This document shows, piece by piece, positions 41,306-56,876 of a stretch of DNA of 64,000 bases. Positions within the stretch are counted from its first letter, which is position 1, and each line of letters begins with the position of its first letter. Below the pieces are notes generated by a model. The model was not told where the DNA came from. It ran no database searches and saw only the letters and a program-made list of their open reading frames with translations. The translations under genes and the position numbers were made by a program. Source of the DNA: an uncultured Granulosicoccaceae bacterium (GTDB lineage: Bacteria; Pseudomonadota; Gammaproteobacteria; Granulosicoccales; Granulosicoccaceae); the NCBI GenBank assembly GCA_937957915.1, contig CALGNZ010000019.1:5262-69261 (forward strand). Direction: 5' to 3'.

Positions 41306-41659
41306 GGGTAATACCGGGTGACAGTGACGTTAGAGAGGTAACTATGGCGTGGCGCAATTGCGCCCGTGGGCAGAATCGCCAGGGCCAGGCCCCCAAGCTT
41401 GTCATGTCAGTTAAAGCCATGCTGCACGTTTACTCTGATAGGAATGTTAAATTTATCCACATGGGTTCTTTGAGTCAAGCGCTGATCTATCAACAATGGC
41501 TCATCAACAATACCCAGTGCGCAAGTCGGCTGATCTTCGCCAACCACGAACCTCACCCCTCAATAAGCCTGTGTTTGCCAACAATTTACCGCCAGGTTGA
41601 TGCTATCACCGTGAACAGCCGCTATATTTACGATAATCCCTGACTCTGTGACATTACCT

Positions 41660-43192
41660 ATGACCACTATTAATCAACAGCACCTCATCGATAGCGTGGC
41701 CGACGCGCTGCAGTTTATTTCTTACTATCACCCGAAGGATTTCATCGATGCGGTGCATGAGGCTTATCAGCGAGAGGAGTCAAAACCGGCCAAAGACGCA
41801 ATGGCGCAGATACTGATCAACTCACGCATGTGCGCAGAGGGGCATCGGCCTATTTGTCAGGACACAGGCATCGTAACCGTGTTTGTCAAAGTCGGCATGG
41901 ACGTCAGATGGGAAGGCGAAATGACGCCTGCGGATATGATCAATGAAGGCGTCCGGCGCGCCTATCTGCACCCCGACAACAAATTGCGCGCGTCCATTCT
42001 CGCCGATCCGGCTGGCAGTCGCACCAACACCAGGGACAATACTCCCGCGGTCATCCACATGGAAATTGTCGCTGGTGACAAAGTCGAAGTCGATATCGCA
42101 GCCAAAGGCGGTGGCTCTGAAAACAAATCAAAAATGGCGATGCTGAACCCGAGTGACAGTATTGTTGACTGGGTTGTAAAAACGGTACCAACGATGGGGG
42201 CTGGCTGGTGTCCACCCGGTATGCTCGGCATCGGCATCGGCGGCACAGCAGAGAAATCTGCTGTGCTGGCTAAACAGGTGCTGATGGACCCGATCGATAT
42301 TCACGAACTCAAGGCCCGCGGCGCAAAGACCAGAACCGAGGAGCTGCGACTGGAGATTTTCGAAAAAGTAAATGCACTGGGCATCGGTGCGCAGGGGCTG
42401 GGCGGACTGACGACCGTGCTGGACGTTAAAATAGCGGACTACCCAACGCACGCAGCATCGCTGCCGGTCAGCATGATCCCTAACTGCGCAGCCACCCGCC
42501 ACGCTCATTTCGTGCTGGACGGCACAGGGCCATCGCTACAAGCTCCGCCAAAACTGTCTGACTGGCCCGAAATCACCTGGGACGTTGGCCCGAGCGCACG
42601 CAGCGTTAATCTCGACACGCTAACCGCGGAAGAGACCAGCACCTTCAAGCCCGGTGAAACACTGTTGCTGAATGGCACGCTGTTAACCGGTCGCGACGCA
42701 GCTCACAAGCGAATCAAGGAACTGCTGGATAACGGTGAAGAACTGCCCGTCGATTTAAGTGGCAAGCTAATCTACTACGTCGGCCCTGTCGACGCGGTAC
42801 GCGACGAAGCAGTAGGCCCTGCCGGACCTACAACTTCGACCCGCATGGACAAGTTTACCGAAATGATGCTCGCACAAACCGGTCTGCTGGGCATGGTTGG
42901 GAAAGCGGAACGCGGACCGGCTGGTATCGATGCCATAAAAAAACATAAGTCAGTCTACTTAATGGCGGTAGGCGGTGCCGCCTATCTGGTATCGCGAGCA
43001 ATCACATCCGCGCGCATTATCGCTTTCGAGGAACTGGGTATGGAAGCTATCCATGAGTTCGTGGTTAAAGATATGCCGGTTACCGTCGCAGTCGATTGCC
43101 ACGGCGAGGCAGTGCATCAGACCGGCCCGCAGACCTGGCGCGAAAAAATCGCCAGTGGTGAGGTGCAACCGATCTACTTCAGCCAGAAATAG
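41660..43192 (+). CDS. class I (Fe-S dependent) fumarate hydratase
   Basis: LIDSVADALQFISYYHPKDFI, ICQDTGIV, and a C-terminal beta-type domain (GRDAAHKRI, GPTTSTRMD), about 510 aa. Confidence 0.9.
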   Translation: MTTINQQHLIDSVADALQFISYYHPKDFIDAVHEAYQREESKPAKDAMAQILINSRMCAEGHRPICQDTGIVTVFVKVGMDVRWEGEMTPADMINEGVRRAYLHPDNKLRASILADPAGSRTNTRDNTPAVIHMEIVAGDKVEVDIAAKGGGSENKSKMAMLNPSDSIVDWVVKTVPTMGAGWCPPGMLGIGIGGTAEKSAVLAKQVLMDPIDIHELKARGAKTRTEELRLEIFEKVNALGIGAQGLGGLTTVLDVKIADYPTHAASLPVSMIPNCAATRHAHFVLDGTGPSLQAPPKLSDWPEITWDVGPSARSVNLDTLTAEETSTFKPGETLLLNGTLLTGRDAAHKRIKELLDNGEELPVDLSGKLIYYVGPVDAVRDEAVGPAGPTTSTRMDKFTEMMLAQTGLLGMVGKAERGPAGIDAIKKHKSVYLMAVGGAAYLVSRAITSARIIAFEELGMEAIHEFVVKDMPVTVAVDCHGEAVHQTGPQTWREKIASGEVQPIYFSQK

Positions 43193-43574
43193 CTCTCGCG
43201 CTGTATCAGGCGCAATGGGAGACCCTGCGCGCAGAACCACATACCCGCCACGGCAAATCTGTCGTGGCTAAATTACCACAGCAAAATTCTGACACGACAG
43301 TGCTACAAGCATTAGCCACCATCCACTGTGTGGCACAGCTGCAACAGCCATGAAAGCCAGGCACACGCACCAACATCTGACGGCGCAAAACCGAAACACG
43401 AATAAGCACAGAGTGCTCAAACTGTGTGGCTTACACACAACAATGGAAACTCGAATTCGGTAAAAAAAAAGCGCGCCCTTGTAATCTGGACGCTCATACT
43501 TCGTGATAGCATTTGTCACAACATCCAGTAGCGGATGTTGCGATAAAGCACTAGAGTTTGTAGGCGAAGATATT

Positions 43575-44681
43575 ATGTTAACTGCCCCGTCCAGCGTTAC
43601 TGCCGCGTTTGTCGCGCTAATGCTGGTGTTGTTTCTGATTGATTTAGTTACCTCTTTCACTCGACGACACAAAGACTTCCGATCCATTATTGTCAGTGTC
43701 GGTGTACTTGGAACATTCACCGGCGTTTTTATTGGTCTGCTGGGCTTCGACGCTGGCGACATTCGCGGCAGTGTTCCCAGACTGCTCGACGGGATGAAAA
43801 TAGCATTCCTGACCTCGGTGGTCGGCATGGGCTTATCAGTCGCACTGTCGATTCTATATCGATTCATATCCAGCACCAGTGACGATGAAGCTGAAGCACT
43901 GAACGCAATCAGTAGAAAACTCGATGGGCTGAACAAACTCGACAACCTGGAAAAACTGGACACGCTTGACCAGGTAAGTGCTCAGCTAAATGCAGCAGTC
44001 AATGGCATCAGTGACATTCGCGGCGACATGCAGTACTCACGCAGTGAACTCAATGCACATTTCAAGGCCACTCAACATACACTGAACGATGCGCTTGAAA
44101 GAATCTCTCGAAATGCCAGTGAAGAAATAGTCAAATCGCTGGAAACAGTGATCACTGACTTCAACAACAACCTGACCGAACAGTTTGGCGATAACTTTAA
44201 GCAATTGAATGCAGGTATAGCCAACTTGCTTGAGTGGCAGAATCACTACAGAGATACGGTCACAAGCAACACAGAGTTACTGGGTAAAATAACCGAGAGC
44301 CTCGACAGCTCACGCTCTACTCTGGATTCAGTAGCAAGCCGAAACAAAGAAACAATCGAAGTTTATCAAAACCTCGGGGAACTCATTCAAGTACAAAAAC
44401 AGCAATCAGAAATGCTGAAAGCACAAATGAAGGAATACGCTGATCTCAGTCAGCGCGCCACTGCTGCGTTCGCCACTATGCAAACCGGGTTTGGCAATAT
44501 ACAAGCAGGCATGCAAGTACAGTCCGAAGCTGTTGCAACACTTACAACGGATATCAGCAAACAACTTCCGGAAGCCCTCAATGAACTCGAAAACACACTG
44601 ACCGGGTTAACTAATAAATTCGCACGCGACTACCAGTCATTTCTGGAACGCTACCGACTTCTGCTGGTTGATGAAGAATGA
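43575..44681 (+). CDS. MotA/ExbB-family channel protein with long coiled-coil tail (ZorA-like)
   Basis: Three TM segments are present. The last two carry a MotA_ExbB-like signature (GVLGTFTGVFIGLLGF ... LLDGMKIAFLTSVVGMGLSVA). A heptad-rich, Cys-free tail of about 250 aa follows. The stop overlaps the next gene's ATG (ATGA). Confidence 0.6.
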   Translation: MLTAPSSVTAAFVALMLVLFLIDLVTSFTRRHKDFRSIIVSVGVLGTFTGVFIGLLGFDAGDIRGSVPRLLDGMKIAFLTSVVGMGLSVALSILYRFISSTSDDEAEALNAISRKLDGLNKLDNLEKLDTLDQVSAQLNAAVNGISDIRGDMQYSRSELNAHFKATQHTLNDALERISRNASEEIVKSLETVITDFNNNLTEQFGDNFKQLNAGIANLLEWQNHYRDTVTSNTELLGKITESLDSSRSTLDSVASRNKETIEVYQNLGELIQVQKQQSEMLKAQMKEYADLSQRATAAFATMQTGFGNIQAGMQVQSEAVATLTTDISKQLPEALNELENTLTGLTNKFARDYQSFLERYRLLLVDEE

Positions 44682-45373
44682 GAAGTAGCAGCAGTAACGA
44701 ATGGATATCAATCTCGGACATGATGGCCGGACTGATGATGATTTTCCTGTTGATCGCCATTGCTTTCATGTATCAAACCGATCAGGAAAAAAAGGCAATG
44801 GCGAATATTGCCGTCGAATTCGAGCGCTCACGTAATGATCTCAACCAGGCTTTGCGCCACGAGTTTCGCGATGACCTGCCAGTCTGGGGAGCAGAAATTC
44901 TCGATGACAACACGATTCGATTTAATGAGCCACAGGTTCTGTTTGCCCGCAACAGTGCAGAGATTAACGAAAAATTCAAATTGATATTAGACAATTTCTT
45001 CCCGCGTTATCTGACCATACTGGCTCGAGATCAATTTAAATCAGAGATCGATGAGGTGCGCGTTGAGGGCCATACATCGTCTGACTGGCGTGGCACTGAC
45101 AGCAGACAAATCGCCTACATAAAAAATGCAAGGTTGTCGCAAAACCGCTCCTTTTCGGTACTTGACTACATCCATACCATGCAGGCCAGTGACCCCTATC
45201 GTGACTGGCTGCAAAAGGTACTCAGGGCAAACGGACTATCGTCAGCGAAGCCTGTTATAACAGCCTCGGGCACAGAGGACGTCAATCGCAGCAGACGAGT
45301 TGAATTTCGCGTCATCACTAAAACCGAAGAGAGAATCTTTCGCATACTTCGTGAAGCAGAAAACCTGTCGTGA
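44678..45373 (+). CDS. MotB/OmpA-family peptidoglycan-binding protein (ZorB-like)
   Basis: The N-terminal TM has a conserved Asp (WISISDMMAGLMMIFLLIAIAF). The C-terminal OmpA-like domain reads VEGHTSSDW..., NARLSQNRSFSV and NRSRRVEFRV. Confidence 0.68.
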   Translation: MRSSSSNEWISISDMMAGLMMIFLLIAIAFMYQTDQEKKAMANIAVEFERSRNDLNQALRHEFRDDLPVWGAEILDDNTIRFNEPQVLFARNSAEINEKFKLILDNFFPRYLTILARDQFKSEIDEVRVEGHTSSDWRGTDSRQIAYIKNARLSQNRSFSVLDYIHTMQASDPYRDWLQKVLRANGLSSAKPVITASGTEDVNRSRRVEFRVITKTEERIFRILREAENLS

Positions 45374-46212
45374 GGCTTACCCGCTTTTATCGCCTTAAGG
45401 AATCCGTGAGGCAACTTCAGGCCCGTGAGGGTATTAACGGCCTGGCCTTTCGTCTTAAAGAGGAGCCGTTTCGTATCGACCCTGCCGAACTGATATTCGG
45501 CGAAACCGGTATCTTTAACCTGACTGTTTCCGGCGCACTGACCCGCGTTACTCTCTACGATGCTGAACAAAGAGTTGACTCAGATCAATTGGACCCACTC
45601 CTGCGGTCAAATGTTGTCAGTGGCGGGTTCGATAATCTGTCTCTGATCGAACAACTGCCTCGCTTCCATTTTTTATTCTGCGAGCACTTGCAGCAACAAC
45701 ACCGGAACGAATGGCGTGAACCGCACGCGTGGCAGATTTCACATCGCGATAAAAGCCGATTTATATTCAGCTACACCACCCAAAGCGGGGTGTTGTGCGA
45801 TATGGACACACAACGCTTGCTGCCATGCGCTCACTGCACAAAAGCGATGAATGAACTCGGCTACATGAAAGCAGAAATCACTGATTCCGGCCATTTACTA
45901 TCATTGCTCGATAGCAGTGAGTTCTATACCCGGCAAAAGGCCATTCGGCCTTCATCCTGTCCATCTGTGCCGAAGTGTTTCTGGGTTGACTGGCGTCACT
46001 TAGCCACGCGATGCCGATCCATTTCAAAGCGTTGCGCTAACTCACACTCGGGAACAGCTGATTGCGATAGCACAGGCCAGAGCACACACTATTCACACTG
46101 TGATATCACTCACAAAAATTTTCACTACCTGACCAACCTCTGCCACCCTTGCCATCAACAAAAGCCAGGACATGAACATCTGCGTCTGGCCGAGCCCGCA
46201 GAGTTGCTATAG
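45370..46212 (+). CDS. Cys/His-rich protein with C-terminal HNH-like signature (ZorE-like candidate)
   Basis: The GTG start overlaps the upstream stop (GTGA). The C-terminus STHYSHCDITHKNFHYLTNLCHPCHQQKPGH resembles the H-N-(N)L-C-x2-CH-x-H layout of HNH nucleases but is atypical. The N-terminal 200 aa are unassigned. Confidence 0.45.
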   Translation: MRLTRFYRLKESVRQLQAREGINGLAFRLKEEPFRIDPAELIFGETGIFNLTVSGALTRVTLYDAEQRVDSDQLDPLLRSNVVSGGFDNLSLIEQLPRFHFLFCEHLQQQHRNEWREPHAWQISHRDKSRFIFSYTTQSGVLCDMDTQRLLPCAHCTKAMNELGYMKAEITDSGHLLSLLDSSEFYTRQKAIRPSSCPSVPKCFWVDWRHLATRCRSISKRCANSHSGTADCDSTGQSTHYSHCDITHKNFHYLTNLCHPCHQQKPGHEHLRLAEPAELL

Positions 46213-46489
46213 GAAAGTGCGCCCGGGCGAGCGGCGCGCTGTCTTACAGCTAACAACTTCATGACACACCCCGCCGGGGGCCTTCATTTTAAACAACCAA
46301 AACCCGGGCAAAAACAACATACTGTCCGGCACACCTGCATCCACAAATTGGCATCACAGAGACCACCGTTTCATTTGCTAACCGCATCACCGAACCGCAT
46401 AGCTGCCGCTATATGCATTGTCAAAAACTGTCGACTCAAATCCTGCGGACTCAGAGCAGACAGTGCAAGCTAACGGAGCAATCTGGCTT

Positions 46490-47809
46490 ATGCAACACAA
46501 TCCTCGAAGAGAAACATTCGAATCTCCGGAGATATCAAATACTTCCAGCCTGGTAGTAAATCTGGATCACTGGTGCAGCGCCGCTAATGACGACTCCATA
46601 CAGTGCTTTTTGAAAACAACGCTGCAATCCATGATTAGCGGGCAGTCACGTGAACTGCATATCGAGCAGGAAACAGAATTCTGCCGAGTCAGAATCAGAA
46701 TCAATGGCCGACTGACCGAGCAAAAATTTTACAATCCCGATTTCGCCACTGAATTGCTGACCGCCATCAATCAGGAAAGTAACGGCAAAAATCCGCACGC
46801 ACGGAGGCCGGGCGATACAGGAAACAACGGGGTGGATTCTGACAACGCCGGAGCAGTCAACGCAGCAAACGACGAATTCGGCAGTCTGACCATTCCGGTA
46901 CAAATAGACGGGGAAAAATGTGACCTCAACATTTGCCGCTACGACACTATTAGCGGTAAATGCTTAACACTTTCTGTTAGCGCGGCGAGCACCATTCCTG
47001 AAGTTCTTGAGCAAACGCGACTGGACACTGCCACCAAACAGGATATCAGGCACCACTATAGTTCAATGCCAGTCAAAGGCATCACTATGATATGCAGCCA
47101 CTCTGATGATCTGCTGCGTTCTGTATACTATGCCCTGCTTGGCGAGGTGAACAACGTCGAGCGTAAAATCGTGTCCCTTCAGAACAACATAGACAAGCAG
47201 GTACCACGAGTTAGTCAGATATTGGCAAATGGCAATGCAAACCAATCGGGCAATAAGCGCAGCCTGCTAACAGCGGTATCTACTGTAACCCGGCTGTCTG
47301 ATCATGTGTTCGTCGACTGGGAAACCGCCTGCGACGAAGGCATCATCAACGCACTGCAAAGTAACGCACAATCCACTCTGTTCTGGCGGGGTAATGTTAG
47401 CAGCGGACTACTACAGTTGTTCTCGGCTGAGAATTTACGCTTAAATCTGCATACAATAATTGAACTAGAGGATACCGCTTTAATATGTCCGCACTGCGCA
47501 GAAACCTATAAGCCCGGAAAACTCGATTTCAAACGGTTACCTGAAACGATGTCAGACCAGAAATCCGGGTCCTTCTTCTTTGCCAACGGATGCGATCGTT
47601 GTGACGACACGGGTGTATCGTCACTTGCCACGGTCACTTCAATGTGTAAGGGAACAGACGCCATCAGAGAAGCACTGGCTAACCGGTCCCTGCAGGCAAC
47701 TGAACAAGCGCTTGCAAGTGCACAAGGCCGCACATCAATCCGGCTACAACTGGAAGCACTGGCAAAAACCGGGAAAATCAGTTTCGAAGACTGGATAGGT
47801 CAACAATAG
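46490..47809 (+). CDS. GspE/PilB-fold protein lacking all ATPase motifs (pseudo-ATPase)
   Basis: It is collinear with T2SS/T4P ATPases: ELHIEQETEFCRVRIRINGRLTEQ vs DIHIEP..VR.RIDG.L, and the tetra-Cys site is retained (CPHC...CDRC). The catalytic motifs are replaced: Walker A by CSHSDDLL, the Asp box by QNNID, Walker B by HVFVDWETACD, and the His box by STLFWRGNVSS. Confidence 0.55.
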   Translation: MQHNPRRETFESPEISNTSSLVVNLDHWCSAANDDSIQCFLKTTLQSMISGQSRELHIEQETEFCRVRIRINGRLTEQKFYNPDFATELLTAINQESNGKNPHARRPGDTGNNGVDSDNAGAVNAANDEFGSLTIPVQIDGEKCDLNICRYDTISGKCLTLSVSAASTIPEVLEQTRLDTATKQDIRHHYSSMPVKGITMICSHSDDLLRSVYYALLGEVNNVERKIVSLQNNIDKQVPRVSQILANGNANQSGNKRSLLTAVSTVTRLSDHVFVDWETACDEGIINALQSNAQSTLFWRGNVSSGLLQLFSAENLRLNLHTIIELEDTALICPHCAETYKPGKLDFKRLPETMSDQKSGSFFFANGCDRCDDTGVSSLATVTSMCKGTDAIREALANRSLQATEQALASAQGRTSIRLQLEALAKTGKISFEDWIGQQ

Positions 47810-47994: not shown

Positions 47995-49311
47995 TTATAC
48001 CGCAACGTTCTGACGAGTAACCTCGGGCACCACCGTATTTTTCCGCTCCTTTCGACCAGCGTTTATATCTACCACATTGTCAAAAGTAGCCTGCAAGTGT
48101 GTTTTGTATTTTTCACCGCACCAGTTAACACCCAGAGCACTTTTAGCGTTGGTGATACCGGTATAGATGCTTCCATTAAGTTGAGTAGTTGCAATTAGAT
48201 AATTTCTATATGCCGTGTACTTGCTTACATCAACCTTCTCTGGATTCTGCCAGAATGACTCCAGCGAACCCTGATGAGTGAGTCCGGGCAAATCGTAGAT
48301 TGCTTTACCCATCGCTTTCACCGGTGTCTGATGATACATGGAAGAGATACCAACCGTGCTGTTAATTAAAACGGCACCCTCTGCACGCTGCAAAAGACGA
48401 GGCAGATCAGTATCGTGAATGTAGTGCACCCGACCTTTTAACCCGTAATCACCGGCCAGGCGCTCAATCAGTTTCCGATAATTCTTGTAGCCACGATCAT
48501 AGGGGTGATGCTTGAATGCAATAGAAGTATTTTCATCTGCAGTAGAAAACGAAATCAACACTCTATCTATAAACTCTTCGACGCTTCCAAAATCTGAGTG
48601 CTGAATAACCTGCATGTCGTTGTGTACCTGCAGCGGCACCAGGAAAAATCTATTTTTCCCTTTCAGCAGTTTTCTACTGGTTTGATACTCAGTGAATTTA
48701 TATAACCACTTCCTCCACCCGGATCTAATCCAGATAGAACCTTCTGACAGCGTTTTCAGAGGACGATGATGAACATAATTTGGAAAACGCCACCGTAACG
48801 CTGAAGAGGCCATATAGTATTTCATAGCAAGACAAGCTGCCTTGAAAAATACACTTTTGACCGGCTGCGACGATTTACTGGTCTCGGTCGTTGAATCCGC
48901 ACGGGCCTCCAGCTGCGTGTTAACGGTATCGGGGTCACAGGCACTGGAAAACCCGTTTACTCCATCGCGCTCAAGCGTAATGTAATTGGGCCTGACATAG
49001 CCTTCCTCAAAAACATAGACTTCAATGTTCAGGCGTCTCGCGATGGTAATGGCCTGTCGATGATAGCTTCGGCAGTCGCCAAACAGATAGATGCGGTCAA
49101 TCTGACGCCCGACCATGACCGATTCGATCCAGTACGGCCACACCACCGCATCTTCCCGAAAATTAAGCACGCTGCCGCTGTGGTAAAAAAGCCAGTCACC
49201 GCCATTGAGATTGACCTTGACTACGTTGTGCCCATGCTGCTCCAGATCTGTAGCCAGATTCCTAAAAAACGGGCCAACAGGTCCCTGTAACAGCAGCACA
49301 TTACGCGGCAT
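47995..49311 (-). CDS. kpsS: capsule polysaccharide export/beta-Kdo transferase KpsS
   Basis: The N-terminus VLLLQGPVGPFFRNLATDLEQHGHNVVKVNLNGGD is typical of KpsS. It lies downstream of and overlapping kpsC. Confidence 0.82.
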   Translation of the reverse strand: MPRNVLLLQGPVGPFFRNLATDLEQHGHNVVKVNLNGGDWLFYHSGSVLNFREDAVVWPYWIESVMVGRQIDRIYLFGDCRSYHRQAITIARRLNIEVYVFEEGYVRPNYITLERDGVNGFSSACDPDTVNTQLEARADSTTETSKSSQPVKSVFFKAACLAMKYYMASSALRWRFPNYVHHRPLKTLSEGSIWIRSGWRKWLYKFTEYQTSRKLLKGKNRFFLVPLQVHNDMQVIQHSDFGSVEEFIDRVLISFSTADENTSIAFKHHPYDRGYKNYRKLIERLAGDYGLKGRVHYIHDTDLPRLLQRAEGAVLINSTVGISSMYHQTPVKAMGKAIYDLPGLTHQGSLESFWQNPEKVDVSKYTAYRNYLIATTQLNGSIYTGITNAKSALGVNWCGEKYKTHLQATFDNVVDINAGRKERKNTVVPEVTRQNVAV

Positions 49312-51364
49312 AAGTAAGGCCTTTTTTTATGTTGCGAACAATGTTCACGTATTTCCTGATTCCAGCTTCAGTAATCGGCGACGTCGCAGCATGTTTTTCC
49401 GACAGAAGCGCTTTGACCGTTTGCTCCACACTGACGTGCTCACCAGACGCAATATCCAGATAAGCCGGATAACGTATATAACTGATAAAAATCAGTTCAT
49501 CCAGCGTACGTCTTCGACTGCGACGAGCAAATTCACATCGATCGGTTGTCAACCCCCAACCGGCGTAAAACGGTCTACCGTATGTAACGACACGCTTGTT
49601 GTAAAGTAGTGCTTCAACCCCGGCCAGAGAACTTATTGTATGAACTTCGTCACACTGTTGGAGCACAACATCAATTGGCAGCTCTGTTTCGATACGATCA
49701 CACAGCGTCAGTAATTCACAGTTTTTATCGATTCCATCAGATCTGTTACCACTGACCACATCCGGGTGGGGTTTATACACAACGATCGCGTCCGGATTCA
49801 ACTGCCTCACCGCTTTAATCAGACCTAGATTGCTGCGTGCTGCGCCTGACCCAAAACGCAATGACGCATCGCCGTCGACCTGCCCTACCACCAGCAAAGC
49901 CTGCTTACCCTGATAATAGGTACAATCAAACGTACCATCTGATGGTCTCGTGTATTTACTGATTCGCTCTCGGAGCAACACATGCATCAATTGACGTGCA
50001 CGGTGCAAATCAATATCGCTGCAATTGTAGAGTTCAAGCAGAGACTCCAGTTTCGATGGTCCTGTCGCATCGAAATATATCCCCTCAGCGTCAATCACCA
50101 GAGACCTCGGTGCCGTAAAGTTACTGCCAAGGCCAACCGACCGCACAAAGCCATCCTCCATGCGAGTTATTTGGTGCCGCTGCAGCGCCTGCTCCACCTT
50201 AGACTCTGGTGGCTTTCTGCCCCAAACCAGAACTTGAGCGGGTTCCCGCTGAGTGCTGTCCCATCGCAAAAACTGCGATACTGACAAATGTTTGTGATTG
50301 TAATCGGAGTTAAACAGGTAGCGATCAATGTATCGTCTTTTCCACGGTGTAATTCCCACGCAAACAAGACGCCCCCCTACCCTTTCCCTTTGTTCAATTT
50401 GCACTTCAATGTGATCAACAATGGTTGCGAGATCACACAAGCTGTTTGTAACCGGATCAACATAGGTCGGGTAGATCAGGTAGGCCGCGACAAACAACTG
50501 GCTCAGCGATCTGGTTTGTACACGTCGTGCGAGTGGCTGGCGATCTTCAGTTAGCCCCCAACCCGCATAAAATGGCTGTCCGTGACAGACAACGCGGGCC
50601 CCTCGCATCAGCACCTCGAGCCCATACAGAGAGGTGCCAACATGTACGCTGTCACAGGCGTTCAGCTGCGCCTGGCTGATGTCTCCGGTTACCAGCGTAA
50701 GACCAAGTTGTTGTGCGCGATCGACAAGGTAGCCACGCTTCCTGCCAGCCAGCACCTGCGGATGCACTTTGACAACAACTTTTTCTTGCGGATAGCGACT
50801 CAGGACGTCACTGAGCATCTCGTCAAATGCCAAAGCATTCATGCCACCCAGACGCACTGACTGATCTCCAACTGTTTGATCAACGATCAGTGCAAAGTCT
50901 GTGAGAGAACCAAGATCCGCCGACTGTTCAGGCAGGTGATTGTATTTACTGATTCCAGCCTTGACCAGACGTGCCATCAATTCGCCAGCGGCACCGACCA
51001 TACCCGGATCGTCGAGCTTCCAGGACTCCGCATCTACACCATTTAGCAGGTTTTCAAGCCTTGAGGGGCAAGTCGCGTCGTAGTAAATACCAATATTATC
51101 GGTGACGATTGAGTATTTACGATTAGACGCATGCTTGCCTAGCGAGCAGATAAATCCGTCCTCGAGGCGGATATGCGGCAGCGCAAATTGAGTAGCTATC
51201 CGCAGCGCTCTGGCACTGTACGGTTTAGAGCCCCATGAGTACACCCCAGCACAATTGTCGCCGAACAATTGCAAGGGACTACGGGATAGACTGGAGAGAC
51301 CCAGAAAAGTCTCTATACGGTTTATTCTCCCGATACCTGACGATAGGGTAAACCCGGATTTCAC
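49301..51364 (-). CDS. kpsC: capsule polysaccharide modification protein KpsC (tandem beta-Kdo transferase domains)
   Basis: About 690 aa with an internally duplicated Capsule_synth-like module (two copies of PFYAGWGLT). It is paired with kpsS. Confidence 0.85.
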   Translation of the reverse strand: MKSGFTLSSGIGRINRIETFLGLSSLSRSPLQLFGDNCAGVYSWGSKPYSARALRIATQFALPHIRLEDGFICSLGKHASNRKYSIVTDNIGIYYDATCPSRLENLLNGVDAESWKLDDPGMVGAAGELMARLVKAGISKYNHLPEQSADLGSLTDFALIVDQTVGDQSVRLGGMNALAFDEMLSDVLSRYPQEKVVVKVHPQVLAGRKRGYLVDRAQQLGLTLVTGDISQAQLNACDSVHVGTSLYGLEVLMRGARVVCHGQPFYAGWGLTEDRQPLARRVQTRSLSQLFVAAYLIYPTYVDPVTNSLCDLATIVDHIEVQIEQRERVGGRLVCVGITPWKRRYIDRYLFNSDYNHKHLSVSQFLRWDSTQREPAQVLVWGRKPPESKVEQALQRHQITRMEDGFVRSVGLGSNFTAPRSLVIDAEGIYFDATGPSKLESLLELYNCSDIDLHRARQLMHVLLRERISKYTRPSDGTFDCTYYQGKQALLVVGQVDGDASLRFGSGAARSNLGLIKAVRQLNPDAIVVYKPHPDVVSGNRSDGIDKNCELLTLCDRIETELPIDVVLQQCDEVHTISSLAGVEALLYNKRVVTYGRPFYAGWGLTTDRCEFARRSRRRTLDELIFISYIRYPAYLDIASGEHVSVEQTVKALLSEKHAATSPITEAGIRKYVNIVRNIKKGLTYAA

Positions 51365-51373
51365 AACCGCACT

Positions 51374-52000
51374 CTACCGAACCAGGTTAATAGCAAGACA
51401 CGTCATTACCAGGCATATCGCACTATCTATTGCCAGGGGCTTCCAGTTTTCACGCATCAACACGACAAGCTGCTGCAGTGATGACAGGCGTTCAAACTCA
51501 CCGCTGGCTGCATCATTTGCTGCAAAAGTATCGGGTACTGATTCTGTGCTCGTGGCTTGCGACGGCACAACACTGGAATCTGCAGCGTCATCATTCATTA
51601 GCAGATGCAATTGCCTGATCACCGATGCACCATGATCGTCCGGACTTTGCCTGGCCGCCTGACCCACTACAGTGAGCAATCCGCCGCTAATGCCGTTTTC
51701 GCGTGCCACTTTTTGCAGGGTGGTTATTTCTTCCTGCAGCTTAACGAGTTCAGCTAAAGTCTCGCCACAGTGCTTTCTTTTATCTTCGTTGTTGCCACCA
51801 TACTCGACCTTGTCCAGATTTATAGTATCGAGCAGGAAATCATGATCCAGATGGTCTGTGGTAGTCGCTGCGTCAACGATGTACCTGTTCAACATTACCC
51901 TGTCGATGCCGCAGTCGATCAACGACACCTTGCCATTTTGCAGACTGGTGACCAGCGTCGTGTAATCTTGAATCAGCGAGGGGCATTGCGCCGCAGCCAT
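51374..52000 (-). CDS. hypothetical protein with C-terminal hydrophobic anchor
   Basis: ORF only, with no recognisable motif. The C-terminus is WKPLAIDSAICLVMTCLAINLV. It ends 10 nt upstream of kpsC. The start is uncertain (ATG at 52000 or GTG at 52063). Confidence 0.4.
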   Translation of the reverse strand: MAAAQCPSLIQDYTTLVTSLQNGKVSLIDCGIDRVMLNRYIVDAATTTDHLDHDFLLDTINLDKVEYGGNNEDKRKHCGETLAELVKLQEEITTLQKVARENGISGGLLTVVGQAARQSPDDHGASVIRQLHLLMNDDAADSSVVPSQATSTESVPDTFAANDAASGEFERLSSLQQLVVLMRENWKPLAIDSAICLVMTCLAINLVR

Positions 52001-52197
52001 TGATTTTCCGGGGGTTCGTATCCGACCAGACTGAGCAGTAAACGCGCCATCGGCAGGCGGCACTGTGTGGGTAGCTTCCTATGCTGCCAACTCCGTTCGA
52101 TACTATCTGCCCGGCACTTGAATTCGCCTCGGAAGCTCGTCGCGGATCAACTGCGGCAACCAAACATTATGTATCGAGTGCCCAACCAATCGGCCAT

Positions 52198-53391
52198 TCA
52201 ACCATTCACCCGCCTCGCTGTGCGATACAGCGTCAATCCGATGACAACAAAAATCAATAAGCAACCAAGCAGCGACTGATATCCTCCGACAGACCAGACC
52301 ACTGCTCCGAAAAACGGCGACACAGCAGAACCCAGTAAGTAAAAGAGTGCCAGTAAACCACTTTTTGAACCAAATGCATCGCTGCCCAGTATTTCACGGG
52401 CGATAAGGGGCCGAATGACACTGACAATCCCGTAGCCACTACCAAACAGCACAACAAACGGTAGTGCGAGTGCGTCAATCCAGTGGGTTGCAAGCAGCAG
52501 CATCATCGCCATTGCCAACGCTATAAAACAACATACGGCTACAAAATCATTCGTTGTACGCTTGTCCATGGCCATAATGACAATTCTGCCAAATACCTGC
52601 ATTGGCCCTATGATCGACGCAATCAACACAGCCTGGTGAAGCGCCAGGCCGCGTTCAACGAGAATCGGAATCAAGTGATGGAGGGTCGCGCCATGAACCA
52701 CTGCTAACAGCGCAAAAGCAACCGCAAGTAACACAAACCGGGGCGTTAACAATCGCCGGAACTGTACAGCCTGGCTGGCATTAACACGGCTTACATCCGC
52801 TGCCGCTTCCAGTCGCGTTGCACCAACCCATAGTAACGGTGCTGCTACTGTTATTGCGACAATGCCGCAAACATTCACGGCTATGCGCCACCCGTAAATA
52901 TCGGCCAGCCAGTGTGCCGCAGGAAAGCTGATAGTACTGGCGAAACCCGCAATCAATGTAATCGTAATAATACTGCTTTTGGCGTCCGCACCGTATGCTC
53001 GCGTCACAAGTGAAAAGCACGGTTCATACAAACAACCAGCCATGGCACAACCGACTATGGCGCTGAGTGCCATAAAGTGCCAGGGCACAACAACTTGCGA
53101 CAACAGAAAAATCGCAACACCGCCCAGACAACAGCTGCCTGCCATAAGCACTGCACCTCGGCCTCGATCAATCATTCGACCTGCCAGCGGAGAAAAACAG
53201 GCCGACATCAACAGTGCCAAAGAAATAGCAATAGTAAGCAACGTTTTCGACCAGCCCAGGCTTTGCTCCCAGCGGAGCAAAAGCGCAGGAAACACATACA
53301 GCAAACTTGCCCACGCCATGGTCTGTCCTGCAGCCATAGCAAGAACACCTGGTTTAATCATTGTCGCTTTACCATAGTCTACGGATACCAC
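52198..53391 (-). CDS. MFS transporter
   Basis: About 12 predicted TM segments with MFS-like loop motifs (GRMIDRGRG). The start may be the internal MIKPG. Confidence 0.8.
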   Translation of the reverse strand: MVSVDYGKATMIKPGVLAMAAGQTMAWASLLYVFPALLLRWEQSLGWSKTLLTIAISLALLMSACFSPLAGRMIDRGRGAVLMAGSCCLGGVAIFLLSQVVVPWHFMALSAIVGCAMAGCLYEPCFSLVTRAYGADAKSSIITITLIAGFASTISFPAAHWLADIYGWRIAVNVCGIVAITVAAPLLWVGATRLEAAADVSRVNASQAVQFRRLLTPRFVLLAVAFALLAVVHGATLHHLIPILVERGLALHQAVLIASIIGPMQVFGRIVIMAMDKRTTNDFVAVCCFIALAMAMMLLLATHWIDALALPFVVLFGSGYGIVSVIRPLIAREILGSDAFGSKSGLLALFYLLGSAVSPFFGAVVWSVGGYQSLLGCLLIFVVIGLTLYRTARRVNG

Positions 53392-53484
53392 ATGTTCAGG
53401 TGCTGTGGCCAGGAGATTACACCTCGGCGAACGGTGCGCGGTCTTACCACCACAGCATTACCAAAATATTTGATCCGAAAAAGC

Positions 53485-53529
53485 AGGGTGTCGGTGAGCG
53501 ATGCGAACCGCACAAAACCTATGGGTGCC
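53485..53529 (+). repeat. interspersed intergenic element, copy B (core)
   Basis: AGGGTGTCGGTGAGCGATGCGAACCGCACAAAACCTATGGGTGCC. Weaker collinear similarity to copy A extends over 53466-53608. Confidence 0.7.
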
Positions 53530-53750
53530 AGCAGCATTCTAAGATTAAACGCGGGAGAGCAACAGCAAACACTTTGCGTTTCTTATCTGCTCATCCGTCT
53601 TACCGGGTCACTCACATTTGTATGCGCCGAAAATTCTTAAACAAAAAACATACGTTTCTAATTAAGTTAGATGAAAGGCTGACCAAAAGATCGCACCCGC
53701 AGCAGAACATTCATTCTATTTGATTTTTCTGAATGCGACAGTAATCAACA

Positions 53751-54737
53751 TCAATGGCTGACGTGTAAAGACCGTGTGTTTTTTTCAATGCGCTGCAGTA
53801 GTGTTTGACGAAGTTTCACCTCTGCAGGCCAATTGTGCGCGGGAGAAATCGGCTCTCTGTCATAGCTGTGATTTTGCGTTGGTACCCTCTCCGAAAAACC
53901 GGCGACCAAACCATCCTTCCCTGTCACATCAATATATTTTTCAAGACAGGACAGCAACAACAAACCCGCAGATGGAGAGGCACCCAATTGCTCGACGAGC
54001 GAGCACCAAAGGTTCCTCGGAACGGTATGTATGCCAACGTACGATGGACGATCTTCAAATCGCCGCCAGACCTTGCTACGACGGTAAAATATCGAATTAC
54101 CAGTAATAATCAGATGCCTGCCGGGCACTTGCTGTGCAGATCTCCACGACGGTGTAACAACGTGCACATCAGCGTCCCCCTCAATGCGAGCGTTGAGATG
54201 ATAGTTATTAAAACAGATTGACAGGTGATCTTCGCGAAGCGATATTCTGTCATCAACATCTGCCGCAGGCGCATTGCCAATAACCGAAAAACCACTTTTC
54301 ACATTTACCAGATCCGCCAATCGGCTCAGGAGAGCAGTGTCAGGTAATGTTTGACTGACACCAACAGAGCCTGAATATTTTTCCTGCAAATAATCAAGAC
54401 ATTGGCTGCCCCCTCTGCTGAGGCGCGGACAGGCAAGGCCAGTCCCGCGGCAATATAGCATCAGCATAGAAAACCACTTCATTTCTCTGGATGCTCTGCC
54501 GGTGCCTCTGAGCAGATCGCGAGCTTTATCGGCCTCCCCCAACTGAAGATAAAGAGAGGCCGCATAATAGACCAGTGCCTTACCGGAACACCGTCGCGAG
54601 AGCACTGCAGCCACGATATCGTCGAGAGTCTGACTGTCAAAACAACCGGAATAGGCCATTTTGTCAAGTGCCCTCAGTTGAGAGCCACCAAGGTATTCGC
54701 GGATATTCACGGCTTTTGCCAGCTGCACATTGGCCAC
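53751..54737 (-). CDS. sialyltransferase-fold (GT29/GT42-like) glycosyltransferase
   Basis: FSVIGNAPAA..., SICFNNYH and GASPSAGLLLL resemble the GNGPS / (C)N / SG motifs of bacterial sialyl- and Kdo-type transferases. This is inferred from motif resemblance only. Confidence 0.45.
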   Translation of the reverse strand: MANVQLAKAVNIREYLGGSQLRALDKMAYSGCFDSQTLDDIVAAVLSRRCSGKALVYYAASLYLQLGEADKARDLLRGTGRASREMKWFSMLMLYCRGTGLACPRLSRGGSQCLDYLQEKYSGSVGVSQTLPDTALLSRLADLVNVKSGFSVIGNAPAADVDDRISLREDHLSICFNNYHLNARIEGDADVHVVTPSWRSAQQVPGRHLIITGNSIFYRRSKVWRRFEDRPSYVGIHTVPRNLWCSLVEQLGASPSAGLLLLSCLEKYIDVTGKDGLVAGFSERVPTQNHSYDREPISPAHNWPAEVKLRQTLLQRIEKNTRSLHVSH

Positions 54738-54831
54738 AGAAACTCACTGTCCAGAGGGCTCATCCTGCATAGCCTTGTGTACCTCAACGTACCCACCGCA
54801 TCGATGTGCGCTCGATTACAGCCCATGCCTT

Positions 54832-55839
54832 CTATGATGCACGTCGATGTTCAGGGTCGACATCAATCGCCCTTACAGGCTCAGGGAACAAAGCGGCAAC
54901 CGCACTGCTACCGGGCAGTGTCGAATCCTTGAAGAACGCCCGCGGATCTTCCATAAGCTTGCGTGCCTTGCGTCGGGTCAACACCGTAGTATTCGCCACC
55001 TTGCGCCTCCATAATTGTTGCCACAATACCCCCGTACGAACAACCGGATCCGTGCCACAACTATCATTCACACAGCTTGCACTGGTATCGACCAGACTCT
55101 CAGTCATCGCGGACTGCAGCGCGTAACGGGTATTCTCAACTGAAAAAATACCTTCCATATCTGGCACAGGCTTATTTGTTTTCTGGTGAGGTAATATCAT
55201 TCTGCAACAGTTCAACCGGGCAATCGCTGTGTGCAGCGCCGGAAAAACGGGATTGTTCGAATAAACATCTCCGGCAATCAAACTGCATGGTACACCAATC
55301 ATAGCCGCATCAAGAGCTCTGGCTGTATCTACAAACACAACGTGCGCTGCATTTCTGTACAAACACAAAAGTGAAGCGGCACACCACCAGCGAGGACTGA
55401 TTACATTGAACTTCACCGATAGCATGTCGCATATCTCTTTTAGTCGGGTCGAATACTGATCGGATAACAAAACGACGTTTGCTTTCGCGGGGTTTTTCAA
55501 GCAATGTTTTTCTATCTCTACTGTCAGAGCCAACTCAAGACCTGTCCACCAGAATTGACAGTCCACTATCAGTGTTTCCGCCGAAACTTCCACAGCAACG
55601 GGGTACCCCAACGCTTCATAGACAGCGTCGAGCGATTCAAACCGAGGGCTGGGAAACTCATTGATGCCGGACGAACCATCAACGCCAATCAGCGCTATTT
55701 GGTTGAACAACATCGACCCCGGGTACAGGGGCATACAACTGATGTTGCGATTTTTGACCGCAGTGATTTGCTTTACACCACGATTGATCTCACACCGTTG
55801 ATGCCGCTCCCAGTCACCGGCTCTGCACGAAACAATCAC
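54832..55839 (-). CDS. putative capsule biosynthesis protein
   Basis: The GTG start overlaps the upstream stop. The C-terminal RRKARKLMEDPRAFFKDS resembles the tail motif recurrent in capsule polymer-synthesis proteins. Otherwise it is unassigned. Confidence 0.4.
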   Translation of the reverse strand: MIVSCRAGDWERHQRCEINRGVKQITAVKNRNISCMPLYPGSMLFNQIALIGVDGSSGINEFPSPRFESLDAVYEALGYPVAVEVSAETLIVDCQFWWTGLELALTVEIEKHCLKNPAKANVVLLSDQYSTRLKEICDMLSVKFNVISPRWWCAASLLCLYRNAAHVVFVDTARALDAAMIGVPCSLIAGDVYSNNPVFPALHTAIARLNCCRMILPHQKTNKPVPDMEGIFSVENTRYALQSAMTESLVDTSASCVNDSCGTDPVVRTGVLWQQLWRRKVANTTVLTRRKARKLMEDPRAFFKDSTLPGSSAVAALFPEPVRAIDVDPEHRRAS

Positions 55840-56876
55840 GCCGCGGCACTCAGCATCTTCTGCAAAACCGGCAATCTGGCTTGCACCGAGTAACTTTGCT
55901 TTAAACGCTCACTACTGGAGTTATCAAACCCGGACTGGTCGTTTGCACAATGCAGCAGCATTGCCGGCCAATCCGCCTCATCTTTAACCAACAGGGACAT
56001 TGGATTCTGATGATCACGCATATCGCCGTTCTCAGTCGCGAGAATCGGGGTTCCCACTGATACAGATTCAATAAGCTTTACTGCCGACTTTGCATCGTTA
56101 AAAACATTTGCCTGCAAAGGTGCAATTGAGAGGTCGACCTGTGCCAACTGTTCCAGGTACTGGCTGTAATCAACAAATGATTTGAATGTAACCTGTTGCG
56201 ACGAGAATGGCAGGCTCTCAGGCTCCATCCGCCCCATCACCACCAGTTTACTGTCGGGCATTGCCGTGAAAAGACCGGCCAGCGCACCACGAATCATCTC
56301 CACATCGTGCGAATGACTGTTACTGCCAGGGAAGTATCCGATAGTAAATCTTTTGTTAGAGACTGCACGCTTTTGCGGCGCCTGAAAAAGGCGCGGCAAT
56401 GAGTTGGGTAAAATGGTTACTGACATTTGAGGCCGTGATGACAGCACATGTTTTGCCAAAGCCCCTGTCGATACTACAATACTTTCAAAGCACTGCATCG
56501 CTTGCCGGTTGTCCGAGAAGTATGCCTCAACTTTATCAAGAGGCCTGTTTCCATTGATGTACAGCGGACTACTCGACGCCAGCGCAGTATCAAATATGAG
56601 GTCATCGTAGTCGGCATGCAACACTACATCACAGCGCCGACACAGCTCAATTGCCTTTGCAAACCTGCCGGTGAACTTGGGTCGATGAAAAATAACATGT
56701 CGAAACTGCCGCACCAATAATTCGCTCAAACGGTCTATATGAACAACCTGGCTTATCCATGAATCTGCGACCAGCGCGTCCGCATAGTGATAACATCGGT
56801 GCCTGGCAGACGGATCATTCCAGGCATTTTGACCGTATCGGGTATCAGTAACATACAGCACGCTCGATAGATTCAT
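55836..56876 (-). CDS. GT-B fold glycosyltransferase
   Basis: Assigned from size, capsule context, and a C-terminal GT1/GT4-like segment (SVGTPILATENGDM). Confidence 0.55.
   Translation of the reverse strand: MNLSSVLYVTDTRYGQNAWNDPSARHRCYHYADALVADSWISQVVHIDRLSELLVRQFRHVIFHRPKFTGRFAKAIELCRRCDVVLHADYDDLIFDTALASSSPLYINGNRPLDKVEAYFSDNRQAMQCFESIVVSTGALAKHVLSSRPQMSVTILPNSLPRLFQAPQKRAVSNKRFTIGYFPGSNSHSHDVEMIRGALAGLFTAMPDSKLVVMGRMEPESLPFSSQQVTFKSFVDYSQYLEQLAQVDLSIAPLQANVFNDAKSAVKLIESVSVGTPILATENGDMRDHQNPMSLLVKDEADWPAMLLHCANDQSGFDNSSSERLKQSYSVQARLPVLQKMLSAAA

What the first reader, a model, noticed from the sequence alone, without database searches (positions are those of the whole stretch)
43575..47809. 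Compact island between fumarase and the capsule locus: MotA/MotB-like stator pair, HNH-like protein and a catalytically dead GspE/PilB-like protein (Zorya-related system of unusual composition?)
Four co-oriented genes sit between a conserved housekeeping gene (class I fumarase) and the kps locus.
- Genes 1-3 are translationally coupled (ATGA at 44678, GTGA at 45370).
- Gene 1 has a MotA/ExbB-type channel signature followed by a coiled-coil tail of about 250 aa.
- Gene 2 has a MotB-type TM segment with Asp14 and an OmpA-like peptidoglycan-binding domain.
- Gene 3 ends in a Cys/His-rich HNH-like motif.

A proton-channel stator with a long tail plus a nuclease matches the published type II Zorya layout (ZorA-ZorB-ZorE). 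No flagellar, Tol or TonB genes are nearby that could otherwise explain a MotAB/ExbBD pair. The fourth gene encodes a secretion-ATPase fold with every catalytic motif destroyed but its zinc site kept. It is not a component of any Zorya type I know. No integrase or transposase flanks the island.
Basis: partly seen in the sequence, partly recalled or inferred. Interest (0 to 1): 0.85.

Follow-up and report, generated by a model that had tools for sequence, protein, structure and literature searches.

The report
Ordinary Zorya II plus unrelated neighbour
Three of the four genes are a standard type II Zorya anti-phage operon, and the fourth, a catalytically dead secretion-ATPase look-alike, is an older resident of the same chromosomal site that also occurs without Zorya in related bacteria.

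Summary

Genes 1-3 (43575-46212) are a canonical type II Zorya operon.
- PADLOC hits are ZorA2 1.2e-61, ZorB2 1.6e-89 and ZorE2 1.2e-11.
- ZorA and ZorB match the solved 8VVI ZorAB complex end to end.

Gene 4 (46490-47809) is a GspE/PilB-fold protein. Its Walker A, Asp box, Walker B glutamate and His box are lost, and its four zinc cysteines are invariant.

The "Zorya of unusual composition" reading fails.
- Five related Granulosicoccaceae-type loci keep fumarase, gene 4 and (where the contig extends far enough) kpsS/kpsC with no zorABE.
- Three more distant relatives of gene 4 sit in unrelated housekeeping contexts, with neither Zorya nor kps nearby.
- Gene 4 is not coupled to zorE: 277 bp separate them.
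- Gene 4 evolves several times faster than its neighbours, though still under purifying selection (dN/dS 0.15-0.18).
- In 15 of 15 loci it is preceded by one conserved GCCGNTA box, which matches the sigma-28 -10 consensus GCCGATAA.

The Zorya operon itself looks vertically inherited and was cleanly lost at least once. The Zorya part is a new member of a known kind. The only novel lead is the small, uncharacterised family of dead GspE-like proteins.

The parts
43575..44681 (+). zorA (type II): a three-TM MotA/ExbB-like channel subunit with a C-terminal helical tail of about 260 aa; 368 aa in all
   Evidence: PADLOC ZorA2 1.2e-61. NCBIfam best hit ZorA2 1.5e-41, below the equivalog cut-off. 8VVI_F (378 aa) 4.9e-29, aligned 13-362 against 10-369. 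Pfam MotA_ExbB sub-threshold.
44678..45373 (+). zorB (type II): a single-TM MotB-like subunit with Asp14 (44717-44719) and an OmpA-like peptidoglycan-binding domain; ATGA overlap with zorA
   Evidence: PADLOC ZorB2 1.6e-89. 8VVI_A 2.8e-47, with SISDMM aligned to SLSDMM. Pfam OmpA 28.4 bits against a cut-off of 27.2. Overlap read.
45370..46212 (+). zorE: the effector, with a C-terminal HNH-like Cys/His motif (H240...H/N252...C258xxC261-H262, about 46087-46155); GTGA overlap with zorB
   Evidence: PADLOC ZorE2 1.2e-11. All 11 orthologues hit ZorE2 models, best 2e-13. Invariant residues. No Pfam HNH hit. The AF2 model was unusable.
46206..46250 (+). G+C-rich hairpin starting at the zorE stop codon, with no U-run after it; possibly a weak terminator or stabiliser
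   Evidence: Predicted fold -24.2 kcal/mol, z = -1.9. It was not picked up by the terminator scan. Suggestive only.
46403..46413 (+). CTGCCGCTATA box 77-87 nt upstream of the gene 4 ATG; a sigma-28 (FliA) -10-like element (consensus GCCGATAA)
   Evidence: It is the only match in the 64-kb window. Exactly one GCCGNTA box lies within 150 nt upstream of gene 4 in 15 of 15 loci, against a background probability of 0.05 per 150 nt. The consensus is quoted from PMC12784957.
46490..47809 (+). Gene 4: a catalytically dead GspE/PilB-like protein (N2E plus C-terminal ATPase-domain core, no N1E domain), 439 aa. It is NOT part of the Zorya operon. Walker-A-equivalent ICSHSDDLLRS at 47090-47122. Zinc cysteines at 47486-47497 and 47591-47602. 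A lineage-specific 20-aa low-complexity insert at 46799-46858.
   Evidence: Pfam T2SSE 1.1e-9. A profile of the family against PDB gives PilF/GspE 2e-13 over the full length, with the motif substitutions visible. Invariant columns. dN/dS 0.15-0.18. The family is 11 clusters with E below 1e-30 among 1.84 billion representatives.
41648..43192 (+). Class I fumarase, the conserved left flank
   Evidence: tblastn identity of 88-95% across all related loci. Pfam Fumerase/Fumerase_C in the precomputed gene calls.
47995..51364 (-). kpsS and kpsC (capsule beta-Kdo transferases), the conserved right flank, convergent with gene 4
   Evidence: Pfam Capsule_synth 8.3e-84 and 1.6e-72.

Best explanation
Two independent units lie side by side.

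**Unit 1 (43575-46212)** is a canonical type II Zorya anti-phage operon, zorA-zorB-zorE. By homology to the solved and tested systems, ZorA5B2 forms a peptidoglycan-anchored, ion-driven inner-membrane motor with a bundled cytoplasmic ZorA tail. On phage attack it recruits or activates the soluble HNH nickase ZorE at the membrane, where ZorE damages DNA. Membership of the family is shown here. Activity is inferred.

**Unit 2 (46490-47809)** is a separately transcribed, vertically inherited gene for a GspE/PilB-fold protein that cannot hydrolyse ATP. The loss of the P-loop lysine, the catalytic glutamate and the His box is shown here. It keeps its zinc-binding C-terminal subdomain. It predates, or is at least independent of, the Zorya operon at this site.

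Its conserved upstream box matches the sigma-28 -10 consensus. My inferred reading is that it is a late-flagellar-regulon pseudo-ATPase acting through protein-protein contacts. It might occupy the platform of a type IV pilus or type II secretion machine, or poison the hexamer of one of its active ATPases, while the cell is swimming. It is not a defence or capsule component.
For: **Zorya II.**
- PADLOC ZorA2, ZorB2 and ZorE2 hits.
- NCBIfam best hits are the type II Zorya models.
- 8VVI ZorA and ZorB match end to end.
- The gene order and the coupled stop/start overlaps were read directly.
- The published mechanism is in PMC11890865.

**Independence of gene 4.**
- zorABE is absent but gene 4 is present between fumarase and kpsS in L009, L010, L099 and L103. 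The same holds next to fumarase in L007 and L104, whose contigs end before kps.
- L008 (Zorya present) and L009 (Zorya absent) are sisters in the housekeeping tree.
- The distant relatives L100/L101 lie between a CarO-like porin gene and purK (purK-purE in L101). L102 lies among cytochrome c, rpe and ATP-grasp genes. None has Zorya or kps nearby.
- There is a 277-bp gap between zorE and gene 4, with a hairpin at the zorE stop.

**Gene 4 is functional but catalytically dead.**
- The motif substitutions are visible against PilF.
- The Cys4 site is invariant.
- dN/dS is 0.15-0.18.

**Sigma-28 box.**
- 15 of 15 loci carry one GCCGNTA box upstream of gene 4, eight of eight bases matching in five of them.
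- L100 and L101 add a TAAAAG -35-like element at the right spacing.
- The consensus GCCGATAA / TCTAAAG comes from PMC12784957.
- Granulosicoccus genomes encode flagella, type IV pili and chemotaxis (PMC9238374).
Against: - No phage assay exists for this operon. The NCBIfam equivalog cut-offs are missed by a wide margin, so it is a divergent member.
- ZorE has no Pfam HNH hit, and its structure model was unusable.
- In the window itself the box is GCCGCTAT (6 of 8 bases) and no TAAA -35 element is evident. No known sigma-28 target promoter from this lineage was available for comparison.
- The proposed partner of gene 4 is pure inference. No pilus or secretion gene lies within 10 kb in any locus.
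- The Zorya-less genomes may carry Zorya elsewhere; only about 10 kb on each side was seen.
Confidence: 0.85

Rival explanations
1. The four genes form one Zorya variant, in which the dead GspE-like protein is an accessory sensor or adaptor for ZorAB/ZorE.
For: The genes are co-oriented and adjacent, and that adjacency is conserved in seven Zorya-positive loci: the window, L001/L002, L003, L004, L005, L006 and L008.
Against: - Gene 4 persists at the same site without zorABE in five loci, and in other contexts in three more.
- There is no translational coupling, and the gap is 277 bp.
- Gene 4 has its own conserved upstream box downstream of zorE.
- Its dN is 3-15 times that of zorABE in the same genome pairs.
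- No PADLOC model matches it.
- Published Zorya II needs only ZorA, ZorB and ZorE (PMC11890865).
Confidence: 0.04
2. Gene 4 belongs functionally to the kps capsule locus, for example as a scaffold or regulator of capsule export.
For: Gene 4 is adjacent to kpsS/kpsC in every Granulosicoccaceae-type locus whose contig extends far enough, whether or not Zorya is present.
Against: - It is convergent with kpsS, so it is not in that operon.
- The distant family members L100, L101 and L102 have no kps genes nearby.
- From general knowledge, KpsMT-KpsED export does not use a GspE-type ATPase.
- Synteny across this lineage is conserved for the whole trp-fumA-kps region, so adjacency alone carries little information.
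Confidence: 0.08
3. Gene 4 is a decaying relic of a lost secretion or pilus operon and has no function.
For: All catalytic motifs are lost. It is the fastest-evolving gene in the region. The window copy carries a 20-aa low-complexity insertion.
Against: - Intact ORFs of 388-457 aa are kept in at least 15 diverged lineages, down to about 20% identity.
- dN/dS is 0.15-0.18 where dS is unsaturated.
- The Cys4 site and about 17 other columns are invariant.
- The upstream box is conserved.
Confidence: 0.06
4. The zorABE-like genes have been domesticated in this lineage for a non-defence role. For example, they might serve as a housekeeping envelope stator with a nuclease.
For: - They sit at a fixed chromosomal position, with no mobility genes nearby.
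- Their tree is congruent with the housekeeping genes.
- zorA has dN/dS 0.015, as low as fumarase.
Against: - They are dispensable: cleanly absent in L009, the sister of the Zorya-positive L008, and in four other loci.
- All three proteins find Zorya II models as their best hits.
- Strong purifying selection is expected for a multi-subunit motor, whatever its role.
Confidence: 0.05

Closest known systems
Type II Zorya (ZorA-ZorB-ZorE). Structural reference: PDB 8VVI, presumably the Sulfuricurvum kujiense ZorA5B2 of PMC11890865 (the PDB search output does not name the organism). Functional reference: the E. coli Zorya II studied in PMC11890865.
   Same: - The gene order is the same, with coupled stop/start overlaps.
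- ZorA has the same length class (368 against 378 aa) and aligns end to end.
- ZorB has the conserved TM aspartate and an OmpA-like domain.
- The third gene matches ZorE2 models and ends in a Cys/His HNH-like motif.
   Different: - It is divergent from the E. coli-type reference: all three NCBIfam equivalog cut-offs are missed.
- ZorE has no Pfam HNH hit.
- The operon sits at a fixed, vertically inherited chromosomal site rather than in a mobile defence island.
GspE/PilB/PilF secretion and pilus-assembly ATPases (PDB 1P9R EpsE; 5OIU and 5IT5 PilF)
   Same: Gene 4 aligns over the whole N2E plus C-terminal ATPase-domain core and keeps the tetracysteine zinc subdomain, CPHC...GCxRC.
   Different: - The Walker A, Asp box, Walker B glutamate and His box are all substituted.
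- There is no N1E or MshEN-type N-terminal domain.
- There is no neighbouring gspF/L or pilC/M gene.
- The family is small and confined to Granulosicoccaceae-like lineages.
Sigma-28 (FliA) dependent late flagellar promoters
   Same: The -10 box GCCGATAA is matched exactly in five orthologous loci and at 6-7 of 8 bases in the others. L100 and L101 also have a TAAAAG -35-like element (consensus from PMC12784957).
   Different: The window copy has GCCGCTAT and no clear -35 element. No dependence on FliA has been tested. A GspE-like gene is not a known member of any FliA regulon that I can recall (from memory).

Membership tests
Zorya type II | ZorA: a MotA/ExbB-like membrane channel subunit with a long C-terminal helical tail | tested here: met
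   PADLOC ZorA2 1.2e-61. 8VVI_F 4.9e-29 over residues 13-362 of 368. Pfam MotA_ExbB is only sub-threshold, 17.1 against 22.9 bits.
Zorya type II | ZorB: a MotB-like TM helix with a conserved Asp, plus a peptidoglycan-binding OmpA-like domain | tested here: met
   PADLOC ZorB2 1.6e-89. 8VVI_A 2.8e-47, with D14 aligned in SxSDMM. Pfam OmpA is above its cut-off.
Zorya type II | ZorE homologue as the third gene, and no ZorC/D or ZorF/G | tested here: met
   PADLOC ZorE2 1.2e-11 for the window protein. All 11 orthologues match, best 2e-13. No ZorC/D/F/G hit among the four proteins.
Zorya type II | An intact HNH catalytic motif in ZorE | tested here: inconclusive
   H240, C258, C261 and H262 are invariant, position 252 is H or N, and C153xxC156 are conserved. 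There is no Pfam HNH hit, and the AF2 model had pLDDT 38.6.
Zorya type II | NCBIfam equivalog score cut-offs (ZorA2 700, ZorB2 400, ZorE 600 bits) | tested here: not met
   Scores were 142.6, 229.1 and 15.5 bits. These cut-offs define close orthologues of the reference system, not the system type, so this marks divergence rather than exclusion.
Zorya type II | Protection against phage that depends on ion flow, the ZorA tail and ZorE | not testable with these tools
   Needs cloning and phage challenge.
GspE/PilB secretion ATPase family (gene 4) | Sequence homology over the N2E and C-terminal ATPase domains | tested here: met
   Pfam T2SSE 37.9 bits against a cut-off of 24.9, residues 56-455. 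A profile of the family against PDB gives PilF/GspE 2e-13.
GspE/PilB secretion ATPase family (gene 4) | Walker A P-loop GxxGxGK[ST] | tested here: not met
   CSHSDDLLRS aligns to GPTGSGKS. The lysine is replaced by leucine, and this holds in all family members.
GspE/PilB secretion ATPase family (gene 4) | Asp box, Walker B catalytic Glu and His box | tested here: not met
   The GE of Walker B is replaced by D-W (W277 invariant). Both His-box histidines are replaced. The Asp-box acidic residues are not conserved.
GspE/PilB secretion ATPase family (gene 4) | Tetracysteine zinc-binding subdomain | tested here: met
   C333, C336, C368 and C371 are invariant in 14 sequences, down to 20% identity.
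GspE/PilB secretion ATPase family (gene 4) | Genetic linkage to platform or pilus genes (gspF/L, pilC/M) | tested here: not met
   None of the gene calls within 10 kb on either side shows such a gene in any locus.
Sigma-28 dependent promoter (upstream of gene 4) | -10 element GCCGATAA | tested here: inconclusive
   The window has GCCGCTAT (6 of 8). Five orthologous loci match 8 of 8, three have GCCGATAC, and 15 of 15 have GCCGNTA.
Sigma-28 dependent promoter (upstream of gene 4) | -35 element TCTAAAG / TAAA at about 11-12 nt spacing | tested here: inconclusive
   It is clear in L100 and L101 (GTAAAAG) and partial in L007 (CCAAAG). It is not evident in the window.
Sigma-28 dependent promoter (upstream of gene 4) | Transcription depends on FliA | not testable with these tools
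   Needs a fliA mutant or in vitro transcription.

The most novel reading that the evidence does not exclude
Gene 4 may found an uncharacterised family of catalytically dead, zinc-binding GspE/PilB-like proteins expressed from sigma-28-type promoters. In that reading, swimming cells of Granulosicoccaceae and their relatives use it to silence or re-purpose a type IV pilus or type II secretion motor, through platform competition or mixed hexamers. That would be a protein-level switch between swimming and surface attachment on algal hosts.
Probability: 0.15. Interest if true: 0.6.

Novelty: new member of a known kind. Interest (0 to 1): 0.3.

Why it matters
- **For annotation.** The locus should be called Zorya type II (three genes). 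The neighbouring GspE-like gene should not be added to the system. Adjacency in one genome was misleading, and comparison with Zorya-less relatives resolved it.
- **On Zorya stability.** A Zorya II operon can be a long-lived, vertically inherited chromosomal resident under selection as strong as on fumarase, with clean loss in sister lineages. This bears on how stable defence systems can be outside mobile islands.
- **On gene 4.** The dead GspE-like family is small and uncharacterised. If its sigma-28-like promoter is real, it offers a testable link between flagellar gene expression and pilus or secretion machinery in abundant kelp-surface bacteria.

Tried and rejected
- **Structure prediction.** The AlphaFold2 models of gene 4 (pLDDT 50.5) and ZorE (pLDDT 38.6) were too poor for fold searches, so none was run.
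- **Metagenome scan.** The scan with a profile of distant gene 4 relatives first failed for lack of a conserved stretch. It then returned 79 loci at no more than 29% identity (nearly all 18-26%). I took these, without inspecting them, to be ordinary GspE/PilB ATPases. None carried zorABE.
- **Betaproteobacterial hits.** The hits in the genome scan (L011-L019) have intact GPTGSGKTT Walker A motifs. They matched only through the shared LICPHCAE stretch and are not family members.
- **Literature.** Searches for degenerate GspE/PilB paralogues found nothing relevant.
- **Other sigma-28 sites in the window.** Only three intragenic GCCGATAA matches were found, at chance level, and there was no TAAA-N15-GCCGMTA site. 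The promoter idea could therefore not be cross-checked against known flagellar promoters of this organism.
- **Insertion boundaries.** DNA alignment of the intergenic regions between Zorya-positive and Zorya-negative loci aligned only fumarase. No target-site duplications or scars could be mapped.
- **Uninformative contigs.** L105 and L106 are too short.
- **Spurious ORF.** The minus-strand ORF 43268-43963, which overlaps the start of zorA, is Ser-rich and not called in any related locus. I treated it as spurious.

Full report
**Observation.** The region holds four co-oriented ORFs.
- Gene 1 is 43575-44681 (368 aa from the ATG).
- Gene 2 is 44678-45373 (231 aa).
- Gene 3 is 45370-46212 (280 aa).
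- Gene 4 is 46490-47809 (439 aa from the ATG; a TTG at 46418 is also in frame).

Gene 4 lies 277 bp downstream of gene 3. G+C content is 0.45-0.52 across the block, against 0.45-0.57 in the flanks, so there is no compositional island. The left flank is trpCDGE and class I fumarase. The right flank is kpsS/kpsC followed by a glycosyltransferase-rich capsule locus ending in a KpsD-like exporter. The part of the window that was scanned upstream (about 1-29 kb) is core housekeeping: def-fmt-rsmB, trkAH, dprA and glnE. No integrase, flagellar, Tol or Ton gene turned up.

**Genes 1-3 are a type II Zorya operon.**
- Against PADLOC-DB the three proteins hit ZorA2 (1.2e-61), ZorB2 (1.6e-89) and ZorE2 (1.2e-11).
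- NCBIfam gives the type II Zorya models as best hits, all far below the equivalog cut-offs, so the system is divergent from the E. coli-type reference.
- ZorA aligns end to end (13-362 of 368) with chain F of 8VVI (378 aa, 4.9e-29).
- ZorB aligns with chain A of 8VVI (2.8e-47), with Asp14 in SISDMM opposite SLSDMM.
- 8VVI is presumably the ZorA5B2 type II complex described in PMC11890865; the PDB search output does not name the organism. The "short" ZorA is therefore the normal length for this subclass.
- Pfam supports OmpA above its cut-off and MotA_ExbB only below it.
- ZorE has no Pfam HNH hit. All 11 orthologues match ZorE2 models.
- The ZorE alignment shows invariant H240, C258, C261 and H262, H or N at position 252, and an upstream CxxC. 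This is compatible with a zinc-stabilised HNH motif.
- The AlphaFold model of ZorE was too poor to confirm the fold.

The published mechanism is a peptidoglycan-anchored, ion-driven ZorA5B2 motor whose cytoplasmic tail is needed to recruit the ZorE nickase to the membrane on infection (PMC11890865). It is taken over here by homology and is not shown for this operon.

**Gene 4 is a dead GspE/PilB-like protein.**
- Pfam T2SSE matches residues 56-455 of the ORF read from the upstream TTG (463 aa), i.e. nearly its whole length (1.1e-9, above cut-off).
- A profile of the family matches PilF, EpsE and PilB structures over the whole N2E plus C-terminal domain core (2e-13).
- In that alignment GPTGSGKS is replaced by CSHSDDLLRS.
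- The Walker B GE is replaced by D-W, and the Trp is invariant.
- Both His-box histidines are lost, and the Asp box is not conserved.
- CPHC...GCxRC is invariant even among members at 20% identity.
- There is no N1E domain.

**Gene 4 is not part of the Zorya system.** Homologues of gene 4 are rare. There are 14 close proteins in the 5.8-billion-protein index. There are 11 clusters with E below 1e-30 among 1.84 billion representatives, after which scores fall to those of ordinary ATPases. A genome scan places them in Granulosicoccaceae and a "Chromatiales" MAG.

The contexts fall into three groups.
- **Zorya present:** L001/L002, L003, L004, L005, L006 and L008 (plus the window) carry zorABE before gene 4, in the order trp, fumarase, zorABE, gene 4, kps wherever the contig extends that far.
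- **Zorya absent, same site:** L007, L009, L010, L099 and L103/L104 have fumarase followed directly by gene 4, 90-230 bp later. kpsS/kpsC follow where the contig continues. There is no zorABE within 10 kb.
- **Other contexts:** The more distant, equally degenerate relatives lie elsewhere. L100 and L101 sit between a CarO-like porin gene and purK (purK-purE in L101). L102 sits among cytochrome c, rpe and ATP-grasp genes. None has Zorya or kps nearby.

In neighbour-joining trees, gene 4 and zorABE both follow the housekeeping tree. The Zorya-positive L008 is sister to the Zorya-negative L009. The simplest history is an old insertion of zorABE between fumarase and gene 4, vertical descent, and at least one clean loss. 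It is met in the negative sense.

**Selection.** In pairs where dS is unsaturated (L004/L006 and L002/L005), gene 4 has dN/dS of 0.15 and 0.18. In L004/L006, zorA is at 0.015, zorB at 0.041, zorE at 0.050 and fumarase at 0.017. Gene 4 is thus functional but evolves several times faster than anything around it. The Zorya genes are as constrained as a housekeeping enzyme.

**A conserved box upstream of gene 4.** The intergenic DNA is otherwise unalignable between the deeper lineages. Even so, exactly one GCCGNTA box lies within 150 nt upstream of gene 4 in 15 of 15 loci. The background probability is 0.05 per 150 nt.
- It reads CTGCCGATAA in L007, L008, L009, L010 and L103.
- It reads GCCGATAC in L003, L099 and the unrelated-context L102.
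- It reads GCCGCTAT or GCCGCTAC in the window's clade. The window copy is at 46403-46413 and is the only match in 64 kb.
- L100 and L101 share GTAAAAG-N14-GCCG[CT]TAG.

GCCGATAA is the sigma-28 -10 consensus and TCTAAAG the -35 consensus (PMC12784957). Granulosicoccus genomes encode flagella, type IV pili and chemotaxis (PMC9238374). In Zorya-positive loci the box lies downstream of zorE. A G+C-rich hairpin without a U-run overlaps the zorE stop.

I infer that gene 4 has its own promoter, probably sigma-28 dependent. The -35 element is weak or absent in the window, and no known flagellar promoter of this lineage was available for comparison. This is therefore a lead at roughly even odds, not a result.

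**Mechanism committed to.** For zorABE it is Zorya II defence as published. Membership is shown, and activity is inferred. For gene 4 I propose a non-catalytic GspE/PilB-fold protein acting through protein contacts with a pilus or secretion machine. It would be expressed with late flagellar genes, and I put this at about 0.15-0.25. That it cannot hydrolyse ATP and that it is independent of Zorya rest on the sequence and comparative evidence above. Its partner and its regulon are inferred.

**Comparison and novelty.** The Zorya part is a new, divergent member of a known kind. PADLOC or DefenseFinder would be expected to call it Zorya II. The proposed four-gene variant does not exist. The dead GspE-like family appears uncharacterised. 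Two literature searches found nothing, and I recall no described catalytically dead GspE paralogue (from memory). It is a side finding of moderate interest.

**Verdict.** Interest is 0.3.

Noticed in passing
window 46403-46413, and the equivalent positions in L002-L010, L099, L100-L103: A CTGCCG[AC]TA box is conserved upstream of every gene 4 family member, including those in unrelated genomic contexts. It matches the sigma-28 -10 consensus GCCGATAA.
   Followed up: partly
window 43575-46212 compared with L003-L008: The Zorya II genes are under purifying selection as strong as fumarase (zorA dN/dS 0.015). Their tree follows the housekeeping tree, which is unusual stability for a defence system. 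They are cleanly absent from L009, the sister lineage of L008.
   Followed up: yes
window 46799-46858: The window's gene 4 carries a 20-aa low-complexity insertion (ARRPGDTGNNGVDSDNAGAV) that is absent from the seven orthologues aligned with it.
   Followed up: no
L100 700-915 and L101 800-960: Two distant gene 4 relatives share a second conserved context: a divergent CarO-like porin gene upstream and purK downstream (purK-purE in L101). They also share a near-identical upstream motif, GTAAAAGATTGAGTCTG.
   Followed up: partly
L001 1863-2519 and 4061-4969; L006 11532-13000: In these MAG contigs zorE (L001) and kpsS (L001, L006) appear truncated or split. This could be assembly error or real pseudogenisation.
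   Followed up: no
window 51374-57895: The centre of the kps locus holds several conserved ORFs with no Pfam or NCBIfam family (51374-52063, 53751-54737, 54832-55839, 56921-57895) and an MFS transporter. The ORFs at 53751-55839 are far more divergent between genomes (26-61% identity) than their neighbours, which fits a serotype-specific region.
   Followed up: no
window 46206-46250: A G+C-rich hairpin (-24 kcal/mol) starts at the zorE stop codon and has no U-run after it.
   Followed up: partly
window 43268-43963 (minus strand): A 231-aa Ser-rich ORF lies antisense to the zorA start. It is not called in any related locus and is probably spurious.
   Followed up: no
window 17083-21307 (minus strand): An NtrC-type response regulator, a HAMP histidine kinase and a DUF4390 protein lie directly downstream of rsmB-fmt-def and upstream of trkA/trkH.
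   Followed up: no
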